Virus record (IMG/VR): IMGVR_UViG_3300015177_000008
Coordinates: 32,001-96,000 of that record
From: a virus
Lineage: Duplodnaviria; Heunggongvirae; Uroviricota; Caudoviricetes
Strand: one strand, 5' to 3'
DNA length: 64,000 nt
Below the pieces are notes generated by a model. That model was not told the DNA's origin. It did no database searches and saw nothing but the letters and a program-made list of their open reading frames with translations. The translations under genes were made by a program, and so were the position numbers. Positions 12,811-18,574 of this stretch are shown here, piece by piece. Positions within the stretch are counted from its first letter, which is position 1; each line of letters begins with the position of its first letter.

Positions 12811-15800
12811 CTACTTTGTTCCTTTCTCTACATCAGCCTTTTTGGCATGAATAGTCACTGTTTTTGACTCAGTTTCGTACCCTCCATATGTAAGGGCAGT
12901 GAATTTCAGTTTATAAACCCCCTCAACAGTGGTACTGAATGTACGAGAACTTTTGCCACTAATGAAATGGGTTATTTTAGCAGGAAGAATTTTGTACATA
13001 TCATCACTCACCCCTTCCGGCGCCTCAACGTCAACCCAAACAGTCCCACCAACGGTATTGTCTCCTTCCATTAAAGTAAGGTTGATCGTTGCAGTTGTGT
13101 TCCCATCAGCCACCAGTTCAGTTACATCAGGAGATACTGTAAGAACCGCATTTTTTTCATCTGCAACGAATTTAGCTTCGGCAGTTTTCGTCGATACCTG
13201 ACTGTTGGTCCGATTAACTGTTGCTGTTAATACATATGTATTGGCTTTCGTTGTGGTAGCAGTGAAAACAGCAATCCCCTGCTCATCGGTTGTTACCTCC
13301 CCATTCGGAGACAGGTTTAACCCCTCTGGACTTGCACTCAAGGTTACCTCACTCCCTCTCAGGAGGTTGTTATTGGCGTCAACAACCTTGATTCTGTAGG
13401 TTTGTTTAGCCTTCCCGTCTGCTAAAGCATAGTTATTTGCTACCGCAATGTCGGCAATGGTTGCTGTAGCTTTATCAGCCACAAACTCGATACTCTGCGT
13501 CGTCGAAGGCTGATTATCTCTTGCTGTAGCTGTGATTTCGTACGTTCCGGCAATCACGGAAACCACCTGCAGTTCAGCTTCCCCACGATCATTGGTTTTA
13601 ATCCAGACATTATCACCAGTAATCGGTTTAACCCCTCTGGGTAAATTAAAGGTAACCAATGTTCCAGGAACCAAGTTGCCGTTTTGATCCTTAACAATCG
13701 CCGTCAACGTAAAGGCATCTGCTCCATTTGCCGCTTTAGGATTGTTGGTATCAACCTGTAGACTTGCATGTCCGGTCCCTGCATCCGCATTGAATTTCAC
13801 TGTCACTGACTTCTGATTGCCATTTACAGAAAACGTAATATTGCGCTCTCCGGCAACAGTTGACATCAGCTCTATATCAGCTTTACCCGCCGCATTGGTT
13901 GTTACAGTATTGCCCGTCTTGCTGGTTACACCTTCAGGCAAAGTCAGCGTAACATTTTGCCCCTGTAACGGGTTGCCATAGGAGTCCACAACGGTCAGTG
14001 TTACCTTGTTAGCTGACTGTCCATTCGCCAGTTGGTTATCCACCTCGACTGAAATGTCGTTGATATTTGCTTCGGTGGTATTACCCACAACCTCCAGCAG
14101 TAAAGGTTTTGAAGCAGCATCTCTGCCGTCTACCCTTGGCCAGATGACTAACTGCCCCGCAGCAGAACCTAAAGTTAATGTAGTAACATAGGTGCCATCG
14201 CTCTGCTCTTTCCATTCGCCTACCGAAGGTTTTTCTGTTCCAGCATTGGCTACACCACTAAATTCTGGTGTCTCAGGTTTCAGGCCACTAATAGGATTAC
14301 CCTTCGCATCCTTCGCCGTATATGTCAGTTTGGTCGTTGTTTTGACTATTGGCGTTCCATTATCCGCAACAAGCGTGGAATTAGTTAATGATATATCCCG
14401 GGCGATAACGGTCAAAATCGCTGCTTCTGAGGCGGCGGGCTGACCATTTATAAGCGGCATAATGCTAATCTCACCCGTTTTTACACCAGCGGTAAGCGTA
14501 GCAATATAGGTGCCGCCGTTTTCCTCAGCCCAATTTGAAATGTTCGCCCCTTCAGCTGCGGCCCCCGTCAGAGTTGCCGATAGAGAAAGACCGCTGATTG
14601 CATTACCATGTGCATCTTTTGCTACCAGCGTCACTATCGTGCTGTCTCCTGCTTTCACTTTATCTGAAGCAACAGAAACCTTCGACTGACCTGAAGATAA
14701 AGCGTCAGCCACAACGATAACTTTAGCTGCATTAGCCGCCGCATCCTGTCCATTGAGTTTCGGCATAACAACTAATTCGCCCACCGTAGTACCCAGAGAA
14801 ATCTGCGCGGTCCATGTTCCATCACCATTATCCGTCCAGCCTGAGACTGAAGAACCCGCAGCGGCTGCACCTGATAATGACGGCGCTTCTGGGGTGATGC
14901 CTGTTACTGGGTTGTTATAAGCATCTTTTGCTGACCAGATTGCCGTAAGCGTACCACCAACCACCGGTTTATCAGGATTCAGAGTGATGGACGAATGTGC
15001 TGCATCAAGCGGCCCGGCAACAAACTTCAGCGTTTGTTGCAATGTGCCCAACTGATACTGATCACTAAAGGCACGCACAACAATGTTTCCGGCACGGGTC
15101 GAAGAAACCGTGGCGCTATAGACCCCCGGCTTTATCTCCGAAATGCTGCCAATGGTAACACCGCTGTTGTCCTGTGGAACAAAGCGCAAACGGCTGGCTT
15201 CTCCCTCCACCGGGTTGCCATCGGTATCCACCGCAGTAAGCGTCAACGTGTAAGATTTCTGACCATCGGCAATCACATCACCTGACGTCTCATTCACACT
15301 CAGAGTCGATTTTGTCACATCCATCATAGTGGTACGCAGTTCAGCCGTGACGGTTTTGCTCATGCCATCAACGCTCACAGTAATGGTTGCTTCACCTGAT
15401 TGCGTACCGGTGGTGAAGACAGACTTGTACACTCCGGCTTCTGTTTCGGTGATCTCACCCAGTGTTGGCTGTGCCTGTGATTTAGCGGACTTAAAGGCCC
15501 GCGTTACGATGTTTCCGGCAGGTTTAAACGTCAGTTCAGTTTTGATCTGATCTTTCATTCCCGTGATTGGCTGTCCCTCGGCGTCTCGCAGAGACAGAAC
15601 CAGCGGCTTTTGCGCACTCCCGTTAGCAAGCATTTGGATACGGCTCTGGCCATCAAGCGTTAACGTAGTACGATCGGCGCTCATACCTGCTCCGGTAATG
15701 ACCACCGCAGTCTGCACACGTTTCGAGGCATTGCCTTTGTTATCGTATGCAACCGCAGAGATCGCGTAATAATTGTCTTTGCCTGCACGATAAGCCGGGA

Positions 15801-17061
15801 GCGTTACTTGCCACTGGTTACCCTGACCGGTAATTTTACCGCCTGCGGCCAGCAAAGACGGTGCTTCCCATTGCACATTTTTCAGGCCGTGAGTTGCTTT
15901 GCTGACCACGAGGCCAAGAGACACCGTCTGCCCGCCCTTACCTTCAATACGGTCTGGCAAGGCAATACGGATCACCTCAGCTTTGCGATACTCAAGAACT
16001 ATATTGTTATTACGTTCAACCAGATCATATCGGCTGCCTGCCAGTACCCGACGCTCGCGAATGCTGTCTGTATCGAGTTGTTTCTCCAGAGGCTCGCCAA
16101 TCCGGTAGTTAACTTCCAGGCCAAAGCGAGTGTCATTCTGACCGCTCTTGCCCTGTTTGTGCTCTGCACTCAGTGTCAGAAGAGGCACTGGCGTGTAATT
16201 CACTTCAGCGGTAATCGCATGTGGATCTTTCTGGCGTTTATCTTTACCAAACAGCCCAACTTCATCGCCATAATACTGTTCATACATCAGGCTTGCGCCA
16301 AGCTGCGGCCAGGCAGGTAAATAACCCTCAGCACGAATATCCCAGCCATTCGCCGGGCGTTCCTGATAATCCTCAACATCCGGTGATTTTTTCCAGCCAG
16401 AAGCCCGGATATAACCATTGGCGCTCAGCTTAAGATAATCACGCCAGTATTCCGTACCAATACCAATGCGGGTATGACTACGAGATAAATCATGGTCAAT
16501 AAAGGTATTCACCCCCGCCATCCAGTCATTACCTGAAAAATGACGCCAGCCAAAACCAATATTTGACTGAGTGCGATCGTCAGTGCGATGTATTGCCCCC
16601 TGAGTGAACAGCATATTTGTCGGCGTGTCATATATCGGATAAAGCATTTCCAGCGAAGAATCCTTCAGCGAGAAATCTTTATCGGCATTCAGTTTGACGC
16701 GCGCGGTGCCATATTTCCCGAGCCACTCCTGGATTTCCTGGGTGGCCTTAGCCGTAGCCATTCCGGTAACAAAGTTGCGAGTCGTATCGCTATCCGGCTG
16801 ACTGCTTAAAAATTTACCGGCATTCGCGGCAACCGACGCGATATTTTTTTCTGTATTATTGTCAGTAGCAACCGCAGTATTTTCCGTACTTAGACGTGGC
16901 AAAGCCGCATTATGCGCTTGAGCTGTCATTGACGGTGTAAAAGTGACAGCTAATGGGAAAAGAACCTGAACAGAGATGTTTGCCCATGCCACACATCTAG
17001 CCAAGGCGGAATAGCGGAAACGTTGTTGTTTATAGGTTTTATTTAAACGTAACATTGACAT
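12811..17061 (-). CDS. Intimin/invasin-family inverse autotransporter adhesin with tandem bacterial Ig-like repeats (1416 aa)
   Basis: N-terminal signal-like segment and beta-barrel-like region, then many T/V/G/S-rich Ig-like repeats of about 100 aa; AT-rich upstream region. Confidence 0.88.
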   Translation of the reverse strand: MSMLRLNKTYKQQRFRYSALARCVAWANISVQVLFPLAVTFTPSMTAQAHNAALPRLSTENTAVATDNNTEKNIASVAANAGKFLSSQPDSDTTRNFVTGMATAKATQEIQEWLGKYGTARVKLNADKDFSLKDSSLEMLYPIYDTPTNMLFTQGAIHRTDDRTQSNIGFGWRHFSGNDWMAGVNTFIDHDLSRSHTRIGIGTEYWRDYLKLSANGYIRASGWKKSPDVEDYQERPANGWDIRAEGYLPAWPQLGASLMYEQYYGDEVGLFGKDKRQKDPHAITAEVNYTPVPLLTLSAEHKQGKSGQNDTRFGLEVNYRIGEPLEKQLDTDSIRERRVLAGSRYDLVERNNNIVLEYRKAEVIRIALPDRIEGKGGQTVSLGLVVSKATHGLKNVQWEAPSLLAAGGKITGQGNQWQVTLPAYRAGKDNYYAISAVAYDNKGNASKRVQTAVVITGAGMSADRTTLTLDGQSRIQMLANGSAQKPLVLSLRDAEGQPITGMKDQIKTELTFKPAGNIVTRAFKSAKSQAQPTLGEITETEAGVYKSVFTTGTQSGEATITVSVDGMSKTVTAELRTTMMDVTKSTLSVNETSGDVIADGQKSYTLTLTAVDTDGNPVEGEASRLRFVPQDNSGVTIGSISEIKPGVYSATVSSTRAGNIVVRAFSDQYQLGTLQQTLKFVAGPLDAAHSSITLNPDKPVVGGTLTAIWSAKDAYNNPVTGITPEAPSLSGAAAAGSSVSGWTDNGDGTWTAQISLGTTVGELVVMPKLNGQDAAANAAKVIVVADALSSGQSKVSVASDKVKAGDSTIVTLVAKDAHGNAISGLSLSATLTGAAAEGANISNWAEENGGTYIATLTAGVKTGEISIMPLINGQPAASEAAILTVIARDISLTNSTLVADNGTPIVKTTTKLTYTAKDAKGNPISGLKPETPEFSGVANAGTEKPSVGEWKEQSDGTYVTTLTLGSAAGQLVIWPRVDGRDAASKPLLLEVVGNTTEANINDISVEVDNQLANGQSANKVTLTVVDSYGNPLQGQNVTLTLPEGVTSKTGNTVTTNAAGKADIELMSTVAGERNITFSVNGNQKSVTVKFNADAGTGHASLQVDTNNPKAANGADAFTLTAIVKDQNGNLVPGTLVTFNLPRGVKPITGDNVWIKTNDRGEAELQVVSVIAGTYEITATARDNQPSTTQSIEFVADKATATIADIAVANNYALADGKAKQTYRIKVVDANNNLLRGSEVTLSASPEGLNLSPNGEVTTDEQGIAVFTATTTKANTYVLTATVNRTNSQVSTKTAEAKFVADEKNAVLTVSPDVTELVADGNTTATINLTLMEGDNTVGGTVWVDVEAPEGVSDDMYKILPAKITHFISGKSSRTFSTTVEGVYKLKFTALTYGGYETESKTVTIHAKKADVEKGTK

Positions 17062-18259: not shown

Positions 18260-18574
18260 TTATTTTTTCCTATAAACATATAGTTCTCCATGCGCTTTCT
18301 TTCTGTCTCGGTGTATTCCCATTTCTTTTTCTATTCGTATCGTAGCTTTACGTAACTCTTTTGATGTGCTAACATCTTTGGCTGCAATGTTTTTTGGCAC
18401 CGCCTGCTTCATGCAGCGGCGTATTTGTTCTCTAACATATATTCGTTGGTCTACCTGTCCTTCCTGTCGATAATCCATCAGTACTTCCTGCCAGCGAACA
18501 GCAGCCCTGCGCCATAGTCCTCTTTGCTCAAGATCTTCGGCCTTCTTGTCTCTAACCATTTCCCCTCCAAACAA
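18260..18574 (-). CDS. Small basic protein, possibly PerC-family-like regulator (tentative)
   Basis: 104-aa ORF; LEQRGLWRRAAVRWQE segment resembles PerC-like proteins from memory only. Confidence 0.35.
   Translation of the reverse strand: MFGGEMVRDKKAEDLEQRGLWRRAAVRWQEVLMDYRQEGQVDQRIYVREQIRRCMKQAVPKNIAAKDVSTSKELRKATIRIEKEMGIHRDRKKAHGELYVYRKK

What the first reader, a model, noticed from the sequence alone, without database searches (positions are those of the whole stretch)
12811..18574. AT-rich adhesin islet next to apbC: giant inverse autotransporter with dedicated MarR-like and PerC-like regulators
A 1416-aa protein with intimin/invasin architecture (N-terminal beta-barrel-like region plus many Ig-like repeats) lies downstream of apbC. 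Its 0.5-kb upstream region is about 25-30 percent GC, typical of H-NS-silenced acquired DNA, and is followed by a MarR/SlyA-like regulator gene and a small PerC-like gene. From memory, E. coli K-12 has fimbrial genes rather than an invasin at this position, so this is probably a strain-specific adhesin module.
Basis: partly seen in the sequence, partly recalled or inferred. Interest (0 to 1): 0.5.

Follow-up and report, generated by a model that had tools for sequence, protein, structure and literature searches.

The report
Adhesin gene cassette on a phage-plasmid
The large adhesin gene and its two small regulator genes are real, but they sit on a virus-like plasmid (an SSU5/pLF82-type phage-plasmid) and not on the E. 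coli chromosome, so a temperate phage element is carrying a rare extra copy of the FdeC adhesin between strains.

Summary
There is a 1414/1416-aa inverse autotransporter (IAT) with a full IAT_beta barrel and about 10 Ig-like domains. Upstream of it lie a 535-bp region of 30.5% GC, a 162-aa MarR-family gene and a 99-aa PerC-family gene.

The genomic context was misread. The metG-apbC pair here is the copy carried by pLF82/Cyrano-like SSU5-family phage-plasmids, not the chromosomal locus. The 6.2-kb cassette (window ~12650-18820) replaces the variable region between humD and a DUF4942 gene. It occurs in 2 of 5426 complete E. coli genomes, both times on ~110-kb plasmids.

- **The adhesin** is an FdeC paralogue: 78-80% aa identity to E. 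coli FdeC and 83% to E. marmotae FdeC. It is mosaic, with a divergent Ig-only tip.
- **The MarR** is not SlyA-like. It belongs to the PapX/SfaX/VatX "X" regulators (about 52% identity to each) and forms its own IAT-linked clade.
- **Linkage:** the MarR-IAT pair recurs with diverged alleles in four independent element lineages; three also carry PerC. P1-like phage-plasmids carry the IAT at their humD site. All three genes show purifying selection.

Verdict: an undescribed but conventional mobile adhesin module, a new member of known kinds. Interest is moderate.

The parts
8993..11026 (-). [quoted passage not shown] Flanking backbone or cargo, not part of the cassette.
   Evidence: RefSeq annotation of the 99.96%-identical p108_MLI108-3. 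About 97% identical in roughly 190 pLF82-like plasmids and in phage Cyrano.
11184..12284 (+). apbC (ParA/NUBPL-type Fe-S carrier), the phage-plasmid copy. Flanking backbone.
   Evidence: Pfam ParA E=2.4e-102. Annotated as apbC in p108_MLI108-3 and pLF82.
12322..12633 (-). Damaged humD (umuD'-like). It has a 26-codon internal deletion (103 aa against 129 aa in pLF82) and has lost its LexA box. This is the left anchor of the cassette.
   Evidence: Protein and DNA comparison with pLF82. NCBIfam HumD E=8.6e-43. PGAP marks it a pseudogene in ECdb0033_p7. The same deletion is present next to the IAT in L009.
12771..12793 (-). 10-bp-stem hairpin 17 nt after the IAT stop codon. Probably a terminator or mRNA-end stabiliser; it has no U-tract.
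   Evidence: RNAfold dG -18.8 kcal/mol. Present in L002, deleted in L009.
12811..17061 (-). FdeC-family inverse autotransporter adhesin: signal peptide, IAT_beta barrel (aa 78-352), about 10 Ig-like domains, and an Ig-only tip.
   Evidence: Pfam. PDB 4E9L (FdeC) matches aa 597-1010 at E=3.8e-198; the invasin and intimin barrels 4E1T and 4E1S also match. Identity is 78-83% to chromosomal FdeC alleles. Repeats. The tip model has pLDDT 89.8 and shows two Ig domains. dN/dS is 0.17-0.21.
17062..17596 (-). AT-rich (30.5% GC) control region of the adhesin gene. The proximal ~165 nt are highly conserved among the mobile copies and are absent from chromosomal fdeC.
   Evidence: Composition. Six-way alignment A1. 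Chromosomal fdeC homology stops 29 nt upstream of the ATG. A recombination breakpoint with L002 lies about 284 nt upstream.
17597..18085 (-). MarR-family regulator of the PapX/SfaX/FocX/VatX ('X') group, in a clade linked to IAT genes.
   Evidence: Pfam MarR. 52-53% identity to SfaX/PapX and 52% to the vat-adjacent MarR. Found next to IAT genes in L008, L009, L002 and L024. dN/dS is 0.15-0.31.
18260..18559 (-). PerC-family small transcriptional regulator (99 aa).
   Evidence: Pfam PerC at 53.9 bits against a cut-off of 22.6. PHROG 994 and 10396. Diverged copies sit in the same position in L008 (62%), L012/L013 (93%) and L002 (frameshifted). dN/dS is 0.36.
18560..18820 (-). AT-rich (27% GC) region upstream of perC. 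It is unique to this form of the cassette, and the right junction lies at 18820/18821.
   Evidence: BLAST break-points against pLF82 and pRHBSTW-00905_2. Composition.
18819..18875 (-). 18-codon remnant of the pLF82 HXF69_RS00480-like gene, truncated by the cassette. The backbone resumes here.
   Evidence: Sequence comparison and translation.
18937..20623 (-). DUF4942 gene, frameshifted. Backbone gene to the right of the cassette.
   Evidence: Two overlapping ORFs. PGAP annotates it as 'frameshifted'. 96.5-96.9% identical to pLF82.

Best explanation
This is a three-gene accessory cassette, perC-like, then a papX/vatX-like marR, then an fdeC-like inverse autotransporter. It is carried in the variable 'moron' region of a temperate SSU5-family (pLF82/Cyrano-like) phage-plasmid of E. 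coli.

Shown here:
- The element is a phage-plasmid.
- The cassette replaces 4.7 kb of variable DNA between the humD promoter and a DUF4942 gene.
- All three genes are intact and under purifying selection.
- The MarR-IAT pairing and the control region between them are conserved across diverged alleles and across different mobile elements.

Inferred for the adhesin. The protein is exported by Sec. Its N-terminal 12-strand barrel is inserted in the outer membrane by BAM. The C-terminal rod of about 10 Ig-like domains is threaded out, as in intimin, invasin and FdeC. It then acts as a surface adhesin or biofilm factor whose divergent Ig-only tip gives a binding specificity different from chromosomal FdeC.

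Inferred for regulation. The AT-rich promoter region is silenced by H-NS. The X-type MarR relieves that silencing, as VatX does for vat, and/or represses flhDC, as PapX and FocX do. Adhesin production and loss of motility would thereby be coupled. The PerC-like protein is an upstream activator within the cassette or of host genes.

Net effect. Acquiring the phage-plasmid gives the lysogen an extra, self-regulated adhesin. The cassette moves between phage-plasmid families by recombination anchored at humD.
For: Context:
- 12300-19000 matches at 99.9% or better only two records among 5426 complete E. coli genomes, both ~110-kb plasmids.
- p108_MLI108-3 encodes portal, terminase, ParB, nrdAB and thyA.
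- The flanks are 96.5-97.2% identical to pLF82, which is phage Cyrano. Cyrano is an SSU5-like phage-plasmid that makes virions (PMC9928086).
- In Cyrano the apbC-like gene and a gene of the variable region are expressed in lysogeny as morons.
- IMG/VR holds a 108.6-kb viral contig with the same MarR at 99%.

Boundaries.

Adhesin:
- Pfam barrel and Ig repeats.
- FdeC crystal fragment 4E9L at E=3.8e-198, plus the invasin and intimin barrels.
- 78-83% identity to FdeC alleles, with a mosaic pattern. Residues 301-500 are 100% identical to E. marmotae FdeC. The tip (1301-1416) is 54-60% identical to FdeC alleles but 95% to the L009 copy.
- The tip folds as two Ig domains and shows no lectin cap.

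Linkage:
- MarR lies upstream of the IAT in L008 (E. coli B354 SSU5-like; MarR 74%, PerC 62%), L002 (pRHBSTW-00905_2), L024 (IMG/VR) and L009 (a different plasmid).
- The upstream spacer aligns across six elements, and chromosomal fdeC homology ends 29 nt upstream of the ATG.

Selection: dN/dS is 0.17-0.21 for the IAT, 0.15-0.31 for MarR and 0.36 for PerC.

Regulator family:
- About 52% identity to PapX/SfaX and to the vat-adjacent MarR. That protein is 44% identical to PapX, the value published for VatX (PMC6956023).
- PapX and FocX repress flhD. VatX raises vat expression and may compete with H-NS (PMC6246914; PMC6956023).
Against: - No expression, surface-display or binding data exist for this protein. 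All functional steps are inferred from homologues.
- P1-like phage-plasmids carry the IAT with the same upstream region but no MarR or PerC. The regulators are therefore not strictly required for maintenance of the gene.
- In pRHBSTW-00905_2 both regulator genes are frameshifted.
- In one Logan contig (L012) an IS1 transposase fragment directly follows MarR and no IAT is called before apbC. The cassette is therefore dispensable.
- The simple sigma-70 scan finds no promoter on the coding strand in the spacer.
- No sequence resembling the PapX site, as I recall it from memory, occurs in the cassette's non-coding DNA above background.
- H-NS binding is assumed from AT content alone.
Confidence: 0.75

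Rival explanations
1. One reading: a chromosomal, strain-specific adhesin islet inserted beside the housekeeping metG-apbC genes, in place of the K-12 yeh fimbrial cluster.
For: metG and apbC are adjacent and divergently oriented, as on the chromosome. The cassette is AT-rich and rare.
Against: Both full-length matches among 5426 genomes are plasmids. 32.6 kb of the window is 99.8% identical to p108_MLI108-3, which carries phage and partition genes. About 190 PLSDB plasmids and phage Cyrano share this metG-apbC-humD block at ~97%. Phage-plasmid-borne metG is already described in the literature.
Confidence: 0.02
2. The MarR is not a dedicated activator of the adhesin gene. It is a PapX-type cross-regulator whose main target is the host flhDC promoter, and possibly fim. 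The adhesin promoter would be controlled by global factors only (H-NS, LeuO, CRP and similar).
For: 52-53% identity to PapX/SfaX. PapX and FocX repress flhD (PMC6246914). P1-like elements keep the IAT and its upstream region without any MarR. FdeC expression has been linked to motility in APEC, but only on the title and abstract of PMC11143625; the paper was not read.
Against: The protein is equally similar (52%) to VatX, which activates its neighbouring autotransporter gene. The MarR sits upstream of, and is co-conserved with, a cassette-specific control region. The published VatX work found no motility effect for that X protein. The two roles are not mutually exclusive.
Confidence: 0.35
3. 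The cassette is a decaying hitch-hiker: DNA picked up by illegitimate recombination in a hypervariable region of the phage-plasmid, with no selected function there.
For: It is very rare (about 1% of pLF82-like plasmids). The neighbouring humD and DUF4942 genes are damaged. The regulators are frameshifted in L002, and in L012 an IS1 fragment follows MarR with no IAT called.
Against: A 4.25-kb ORF and both regulators are intact here. dN/dS is 0.15-0.36 over dS of 0.03-0.8. The cassette persists with 62-98% diverged alleles in several element lineages and in isolates from Mali, Thailand and the UK.
Confidence: 0.1
4. The adhesin mainly serves the phage-plasmid and not host colonisation. It could drive cell-cell aggregation or biofilm that favours virion or plasmid spread, or mask a surface receptor to exclude competing phages.
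For: IATs such as IatB, IatC and IatD promote biofilm when expressed (PMC6714894). The gene recurs on two unrelated phage-plasmid families, SSU5-like and P1-like. PHROGs holds matching families of unknown function.
Against: No phage record in INPHARED carries it. Closely related copies also sit on conjugative IncFII plasmids beside aerobactin genes, which is a classical virulence-plasmid context. Nothing here tests exclusion.
Confidence: 0.1

Closest known systems
FdeC (EaeH), the chromosomal inverse autotransporter adhesin of E. coli
   Same: Same length and architecture: IAT_beta barrel, nine-plus Ig-like repeats, no LysM domain and no C-type lectin cap. 78-80% aa identity (83% to E. marmotae FdeC). 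The crystallised FdeC fragment 4E9L aligns to aa 597-1010 at E=3.8e-198.
   Different: Located on a phage-plasmid, not at the ecp-ykgM...ykgA locus (compare L007). The promoter and 5' region are unrelated beyond 29 nt upstream of the ATG. The N-terminal 100 aa are 70% identical, and the middle and tip domains only 54-72%. It is accompanied by MarR and PerC genes, which are not among the called neighbours of the chromosomal fdeC loci examined.
vat-vatX (vacuolating autotransporter toxin with its MarR-like X regulator)
   Same: A type V secreted protein gene with an AT-rich control region, paired with a PapX-related MarR. This MarR is 52% identical to the vat-adjacent MarR. Published model: H-NS represses vat, and VatX raises vat expression.
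   Different: vatX lies downstream of vat and can be co-transcribed with it. Here the MarR is upstream, separated by 535 bp. The partner is an inverse (Ve) autotransporter adhesin, not a classical (Va) SPATE toxin.
PapX / FocX / SfaX of P, F1C and S fimbrial operons
   Same: The same MarR sub-family (52-53% identity over 96% of the protein), encoded next to an adhesin determinant.
   Different: Those genes end chaperone-usher fimbrial operons and repress flhDC. This one forms a separate clade (74-97% identity within the clade, about 50% to the others). It accompanies a single-gene adhesin, and its target is unknown.
PerC of the EPEC EAF plasmid and the prophage-encoded Pch proteins
   Same: Pfam PerC family member (53.9 bits). 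A small basic protein encoded on a mobile element.
   Different: Nearest plasmid-borne PerC-family proteins outside the cassette lineage are 52% identical or less. Only three close relatives were found in 5.8 billion proteins. No per operon partners (perA, perB) are present. Activation of LEE1/ler is untested, and it is not known whether the hosts carry LEE.
pLF82 / phage Cyrano and other SSU5/pHCM2-like phage-plasmids
   Same: The backbone flanking the cassette is 96.5-97.2% identical, including metG, apbC, humD and the DUF4942 gene.
   Different: pLF82 has 4.7 kb of small hypothetical and ead/Ea22-like genes where this element has the adhesin cassette. pHCM2-like phage-plasmids in ETEC were described as devoid of virulence factors (PMC8085198).
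IAT of P1-like (IncY) phage-plasmids, e.g. E. albertii p2RM9976
   Same: An fdeC-like IAT sharing ~87.5% nt identity over the barrel half and the 460-nt upstream region. It is also placed next to a humD remnant.
   Different: It is 1209-1210 aa (two Ig domains fewer), has a different tip (about 51% identity) and no MarR or PerC. The host element is P1-like, with the gene upstream of phd-doc.

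Membership tests
Inverse autotransporter (type Ve secretion; intimin/invasin family) | IAT_beta outer-membrane barrel domain (PF11924) | tested here: met
   E=3.6e-109, residues 78-352, covering profile positions 3-279 of 279. The invasin and intimin barrel structures 4E1T and 4E1S match at E=1.5e-83 and 1.6e-72.
Inverse autotransporter (type Ve secretion; intimin/invasin family) | Inverted order: barrel N-terminal, passenger of tandem Ig-like (Big_1/Invasin_D3) domains C-terminal | tested here: met
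   Barrel at 78-352. Nine clear repeats at 473-1410, a weaker tenth match at 342-426 (E=0.011), and an intimin D00-D0 chain aligned to 360-468.
Inverse autotransporter (type Ve secretion; intimin/invasin family) | N-terminal signal peptide | tested here: inconclusive
   By inspection only. A basic N-terminus is followed by the hydrophobic stretch CVAWANISVQVLFPLAVTF and ...TAQA. No signal-peptide predictor was available.
Inverse autotransporter (type Ve secretion; intimin/invasin family) | Surface exposure of the passenger and adhesion or biofilm activity | not testable with these tools
   Needs expression, immunofluorescence and adhesion assays.
Intimin/invasin sensu stricto | C-type lectin-like receptor-binding cap at the C-terminus | tested here: not met
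   The AlphaFold model of the last 230 aa (pLDDT 89.8) is all-beta, consisting of two Ig-like domains. The best PDB matches are Ig domains of intimin (D0-D1), invasin and InvD/InvE.
FdeC (orthologue) | High full-length similarity to FdeC | tested here: met
   78-80% identity to E. coli FdeC clusters and 83% to E. marmotae FdeC. 4E9L matches at E=3.8e-198. PGAP names the 98.8%-identical copy in pRHBSTW-00905_2 'intimin-like adhesin FdeC', but names this copy only 'inverse autotransporter beta domain-containing protein'.
FdeC (orthologue) | Conserved chromosomal position (between ecp/ykgMO and ykgA-rcl) | tested here: not met
   Located on a phage-plasmid between humD and a DUF4942 gene. Chromosomal copies have the ykgA-type AraC neighbour. 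It is therefore a mobile paralogue or xenologue, not the orthologue.
PapX/SfaX/FocX/VatX 'X' MarR-like regulators | MarR winged-helix domain, with closest similarity to X proteins and not to MarR, SlyA or MprA | tested here: met
   Pfam MarR E=5e-11. 52-53% identity to SfaX/PapX over 96% of the protein, and 52% to the vat-adjacent MarR. All NCBIfam equivalogs are below cut-off: MprA 113 against 157, SlyA 32.6 against 120, MarR 34 against 240.
PapX/SfaX/FocX/VatX 'X' MarR-like regulators | Encoded beside an adhesin or autotransporter determinant | tested here: met
   Adjacent to the IAT here and in L002, L008, L009 and L024. The position is upstream, not downstream as for papX and vatX.
PapX/SfaX/FocX/VatX 'X' MarR-like regulators | Represses flhDC, or activates the neighbouring gene against H-NS | not testable with these tools
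   A scan with the PapX 29-mer (recalled from memory, so a lead only) gave at most 16 of 29 matches in the cassette spacers, against up to 19 of 29 elsewhere in the window. This is uninformative.
   NCBIfam SlyA scores 32.6 bits against a cut-off of 120. PDB SlyA 4AIH matches only at E=8.8e-5.
PerC family | Match to PF06069 above the gathering score | tested here: met
   53.9 bits against 22.6, covering profile positions 1-81 of 90. PHROG 994 E=1.7e-22.
PerC family | Activates LEE1/ler or another defined promoter | not testable with these tools
   No functional data. It is not known whether the host strains carry LEE.
SSU5/pHCM2/pLF82-like phage-plasmid | Same replicon carries phage morphogenesis genes and plasmid partition genes, with backbone homology to a proven member | tested here: met
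   p108_MLI108-3 (99.8% identical over 32.6 kb of the window) has portal, terminase and ParB genes. The flanks are 96.5-97.2% identical to pLF82, which is phage Cyrano. Cyrano is an SSU5-like phage-plasmid producing virions.
H-NS-silenced horizontally acquired DNA | AT content well above the surroundings | tested here: met
   27-31% GC across 17062-18259 and 18560-18820, against 45.4% for the window.
H-NS-silenced horizontally acquired DNA | H-NS occupancy and derepression in an hns mutant | not testable with these tools
   Requires ChIP or a reporter assay.

The most novel reading that the evidence does not exclude
The cassette is a lysogenic-conversion switch. On entering a cell, the phage-plasmid would express a PerC-like activator and an X-type MarR that act on host promoters as well as on the cassette (flhDC, fim, and LEE1/ler where present). 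The lysogen would shift from motile to adherent while displaying a new FdeC variant. Because the cassette is anchored at humD, a gene shared by SSU5-like and P1-like phage-plasmids, humD would act as a recombination 'docking site' that lets adhesin cargo hop between unrelated phage-plasmid families and on to conjugative plasmids.
Probability: 0.15. Interest if true: 0.6.

Novelty: new member of a known kind. Interest (0 to 1): 0.38.

Why it matters
Phage-plasmids of the SSU5/pHCM2 group are common in E. coli, Shigella and Salmonella. Attention has focused on the resistance genes and the extra metG they carry. One ETEC study described pHCM2-like elements as devoid of virulence factors.

A self-regulated FdeC-type adhesin on such an element would be an example of adhesin spread by a temperate phage-plasmid. 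It also bears on FdeC as a vaccine antigen. A mobile paralogue with a tip only 54-60% identical to chromosomal FdeC adds antigenic diversity that surveys of the chromosomal locus miss.

The finding also extends the 'X' regulator theme, a PapX- or VatX-like MarR encoded beside an adhesin or autotransporter gene, to inverse autotransporters. The practical importance is limited by rarity: 2 of 5426 complete genomes.

Tried and rejected
- **Chromosomal islet at metG-apbC:** rejected.
- **SlyA/RovA-type regulator:** rejected.
- **Transposon or IS-borne island:** no integrase or transposase lies within 12634-18820, and no repeats were found in the left-junction stretch 12600-12830. The right junction was examined only by sequence comparison, which also shows no element ends. 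The junctions look like illegitimate or homologous recombination.
- **PapX operator in the spacers:** a scan with the 29-mer, recalled from memory, gave nothing above background. This is uninformative.
- **Sigma-70 and terminator consensus scan of 12300-19000:** fewer promoter-like hits than in shuffled sequence, and none on the coding strand in the spacer. Not useful in DNA this AT-rich.
- **Rfam (gathering thresholds) and tRNA scans:** nothing in the cassette.
- **GTDB representative genomes scanned with the MarR:** no relatives. This is expected, because there is only one genome per species.
- **INPHARED phages:** no record carries the IAT. The PerC word-based search returned only 3 relatives.
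- **Origin of the chromosomal-size contigs among the IAT hits:** P0003, P0007 and P0109 turned out to be ordinary chromosomal fdeC alleles.
- **Nichols et al. 2016 on VatX:** the paper could not be read. The VatX facts come from a review and from PMC6246914.

Full report
**1. The observation**

A 1416-aa ORF lies at 12811-17061 on the minus strand; RefSeq starts it two codons later, at 17055. A 162-aa ORF lies at 17597-18085. A small ORF at 18260-18574 has its annotated ATG at 18559, giving 99 aa.

Pfam gives a complete inverse-autotransporter barrel (IAT_beta, residues 78-352, E=3.6e-109). It also gives eight Invasin_D3 and four Big_1 stretches, a MarR domain (E=5e-11) and a PerC match (53.9 bits against a gathering score of 22.6). 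A self-profile search resolves nine clear Ig-like repeats between residues 473 and 1410, plus a weaker tenth match at 342-426. An intimin D00-D0 chain (6TQD) aligns to residues 360-468.

The spacer between the adhesin gene and the MarR gene is 30.5% GC, with 300-nt windows down to 27%. The MarR gene is 30.7% GC and the DNA upstream of the PerC gene is 27.2%, against 45.4% for the window.

**2. The context is a phage-plasmid, not the chromosome**

The stretch 12300-19000 matches at 99.9% or better in only two of 5426 complete E. coli genomes. Both matches are plasmids: p108_MLI108-3 (108 kb; ESBL E. coli from the stool of a soldier with diarrhoea in Mali; PMC10198576) and ECdb0033_p7 (114 kb; blood isolate, Bangkok).

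Window 6347-39001 is 99.8% identical to p108_MLI108-3. That plasmid encodes a phage portal protein, large terminase, ParB proteins, nrdAB, thyA, dfrA51 and RNase H.

The metG-apbC-humD block and the DUF4942 side are 96.5-97.2% identical to pLF82, which is phage Cyrano. About 190 PLSDB plasmids share the metG-apbC-humD block at ~97%. Cyrano is an SSU5-like phage-plasmid of about 5.5 copies per cell. It is induced by genotoxic stress and produces virions. Its apbC-like gene and a gene of the adjacent variable region are among the 'morons' expressed in lysogeny (PMC9928086).

Phage-plasmid-borne metG is already a described phenomenon (cited in PMC12452169).

**3. Anatomy and boundaries of the cassette**

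Against pLF82, homology stops at window 12612 and resumes at 18821. About 6.2 kb here replaces 4.7 kb of small hypothetical and ead/Ea22-like genes.

Closer inspection of the left side shows that the humD start codon is retained. However, humD has lost 26 internal codons (103 aa against 129 aa), and the LexA box upstream of it is disrupted. The true left junction is therefore at about 12650. PGAP calls this humD a pseudogene.

On the right, the cassette truncates a backbone gene to 18 codons (18819-18875).

The cassette contains no transposase or integrase, and no repeats were found in the left-junction stretch. A strong hairpin (12771-12793, dG -18.8 kcal/mol) follows the adhesin stop codon.

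**4. The adhesin**

The closest relatives are FdeC proteins. Identity is 78-80% to the large E. coli FdeC clusters and 83% to E. marmotae FdeC. It is 91-99% to a handful of plasmid-borne copies. The crystallised FdeC fragment 4E9L aligns to residues 597-1010 at E=3.8e-198, and the invasin and intimin barrels 4E1T and 4E1S align to residues 115-359.

Identity is mosaic along the protein:
- Residues 101-700 are 86-100% identical to chromosomal alleles, and residues 301-500 are 100% identical to E. marmotae FdeC.
- Residues 801-1000 and 1101-1300 drop to 57-77%.
- The tip (1301-1416) is only 54-60% identical to FdeC alleles, but 95% identical to the copy in L009.

An AlphaFold model of the last 230 residues (pLDDT 89.8) shows two all-beta Ig-like domains. 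The best matches are intimin, invasin and InvD/InvE Ig domains, and there is no C-type lectin cap. This agrees with the FdeC architecture as opposed to the intimin or invasin architecture (PMC6714894).

Homology to chromosomal fdeC ends 29 nt upstream of the start codon, so the control region is specific to the mobile copies. dN/dS against four relatives is 0.17-0.21.

**5. The regulators**

The MarR protein is not SlyA-like; the SlyA model scores 32.6 bits against a cut-off of 120. Its named relatives are SfaX and PapX (52-53% identity over 96% of the protein). It is also 52% identical to a MarR encoded directly downstream of vat on plasmid LR890578.1. That vat-adjacent protein is 44% identical to PapX, the value published for VatX.

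The IAT-linked MarRs form their own clade: 74-97% identity to each other and 47-54% to the PapX/SfaX and VatX clades.

Published functions of the family are as follows. PapX and FocX repress flhD and motility (PMC6246914). VatX raises vat expression about 3-fold and may compete with H-NS (PMC6956023).

The PerC-like protein is a clear Pfam family member. Among 5.8 billion proteins the word-based search found only three close relatives. Plasmid-borne PerC-family proteins outside the cassette lineage are 52% identical or less.

**6. The cassette is a recurring unit**

The same gene order, with diverged alleles, occurs in several other places:
- **E. coli B354**, an SSU5-like contig: PerC 62%, MarR 74%, and the IAT N-terminal 690 aa 94% identical.
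- **pRHBSTW-00905_2**: IAT 98.8% identical, while both regulators are of a different allele (71-78%) and frameshifted. The recombination breakpoint lies about 284 nt upstream of the ATG.
- **A 108.6-kb IMG/VR viral contig (L024)**: MarR 99% identical. The IAT region has about 620 nt less DNA, corresponding to roughly two Ig domains.
- **Logan contigs (L012, L013)**: PerC and MarR are present. In L012 an IS1 transposase fragment follows MarR and no IAT is called before apbC.
- **A different plasmid (L009)** with a group II intron and ParE/Phd: it carries MarR-IAT followed by a humD remnant with the very same 26-codon deletion. That copy therefore derives from the humD-anchored ancestor.

Two other contexts carry the adhesin alone:
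- P1-like (IncY) phage-plasmids carry a 1209-1210-aa relative with the same 460-nt upstream region, next to a 3' humD remnant just upstream of phd-doc, but without MarR or PerC.
- A shorter (1001-aa) relative sits beside iucABCD on IncFII plasmids of E. fergusonii and Salmonella.

The six-way alignment of the upstream spacer shows a highly conserved proximal ~165 nt and patchier distal conservation. MarR and PerC also show purifying selection, with dN/dS of 0.15-0.31 and 0.36.

**7. Most likely mechanism**

*Shown here:*
- The cassette is accessory cargo in the variable region of a temperate SSU5-type phage-plasmid.
- Its genes are intact and constrained.
- The MarR-spacer-IAT arrangement is conserved.

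*Inferred from the family:*
- The protein is exported by Sec, its barrel is inserted by BAM, and the Ig-domain rod is exported in hairpin fashion.
- It works as an adhesin or biofilm factor, with a specificity set by the divergent tip.
- The AT-rich control region is silenced by H-NS.
- The X-type MarR counter-silences that region (VatX model), represses motility (PapX model), or does both.
- The PerC-like protein acts as an activator at the top of the cassette or on host genes.

I put 0.75 on the overall description. The split between the two MarR roles is close to even. Caveats: P1-like copies lack both regulators, one copy has frameshifted regulators, and nothing here measures expression.

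**8. Comparison with what is known, and novelty**

Every component belongs to a known family. PGAP already labels the genes generically. PHROGs holds matching families, marked 'unknown function'.

I found no paper combining 'phage-plasmid' with 'inverse autotransporter'. The survey of E. coli IATs describes its six IAT genes at conserved chromosomal positions. pHCM2-like phage-plasmids in ETEC were described as devoid of virulence factors.

The finding is therefore an undescribed instance of known kinds: an FdeC paralogue, an X-type MarR beside an adhesin gene, a PerC-family regulator, and moron cargo on a phage-plasmid. It adds one modestly new twist: an IAT-linked X clade, and humD-anchored exchange between SSU5-like and P1-like phage-plasmids.

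It is rare (2 of 5426 complete genomes) and mechanistically unsurprising. Interest is 0.38.

Noticed in passing
window 52998-53416 (+): Full-length match to the cspA thermoregulator RNA (Rfam RF01766, 185.7 bits against a gathering score of 78). This implies that the phage-plasmid carries its own cspA-type cold-shock gene with the temperature-sensing 5' UTR.
   Followed up: no
window 8993-12284: Complete second copies of metG and apbC sit on the phage-plasmid and are conserved at ~97% in about 190 PLSDB plasmids and in phage Cyrano. Phage-plasmid metG has been linked to antimicrobial survival in Shigella (cited in PMC12452169). The apbC copy has no described role that I found.
   Followed up: partly
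window 12322-12660 (-): humD has a 26-codon internal deletion and has lost its LexA box. The identical deletion sits next to the IAT on an unrelated plasmid (L009:6220-6700). The damaged humD therefore travels with the adhesin cassette and marks its origin.
   Followed up: yes
window 18937-20623 (-): The DUF4942 (methyltransferase-like) backbone gene is split into two overlapping ORFs of 273 and 332 aa. PGAP calls it frameshifted in both matching plasmids, whereas it is intact (561-567 aa) in pLF82, B354 and L012/L013.
   Followed up: partly
window ~29631-36302 (-): By offset from the p108_MLI108-3 annotation, this stretch holds dfrA51 (a trimethoprim-resistant DHFR, about 29631-30107), thymidylate synthase (about 30519-31622), nrdB (about 32740-33882) and nrdA (about 33987-36302). 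This is the nucleotide-metabolism block typical of SSU5-like phage-plasmids.
   Followed up: no
window 1-6346: This end of the window matches p108_MLI108-3 only in patches (86-97% identity, rearranged), while the rest is 99.8% identical. It is a second variable region of the element. It also suggests that the window comes from a sister plasmid and not from p108_MLI108-3 itself.
   Followed up: no
L006:7549-12102 and L020:4282-9990: P1-like (IncY) phage-plasmids of E. coli and E. albertii carry a 1209-1210-aa fdeC-like inverse autotransporter. It has the same upstream region and a humD 3' remnant; in L006 it lies immediately upstream of phd-doc. No MarR or PerC is present.
   Followed up: partly
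L019:5993-8998: IncFII conjugative plasmids of E. fergusonii and Salmonella enterica carry a 1001-aa fdeC-like inverse autotransporter (88.6% nt identity over 55% of the query). It lies next to the aerobactin iucABCD genes and IS66 copies.
   Followed up: no
L022:1715-6489: A conjugative IncF plasmid (LR890578.1) carries vat followed 158 nt later by a MarR gene that is 44% identical to PapX. This appears to be a plasmid-borne vat-vatX pair, and it served here as the VatX reference.
   Followed up: partly
window 17176-17255 (-): Two copies of a ~20-nt motif, GTTGTTGCA(A/C)..TTTT, lie 60 nt apart in the adhesin control region, and a third TTGCAA-containing stretch lies near the start codon. Only the proximal ones are conserved among alleles. 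They are possible operator or promoter elements.
   Followed up: partly
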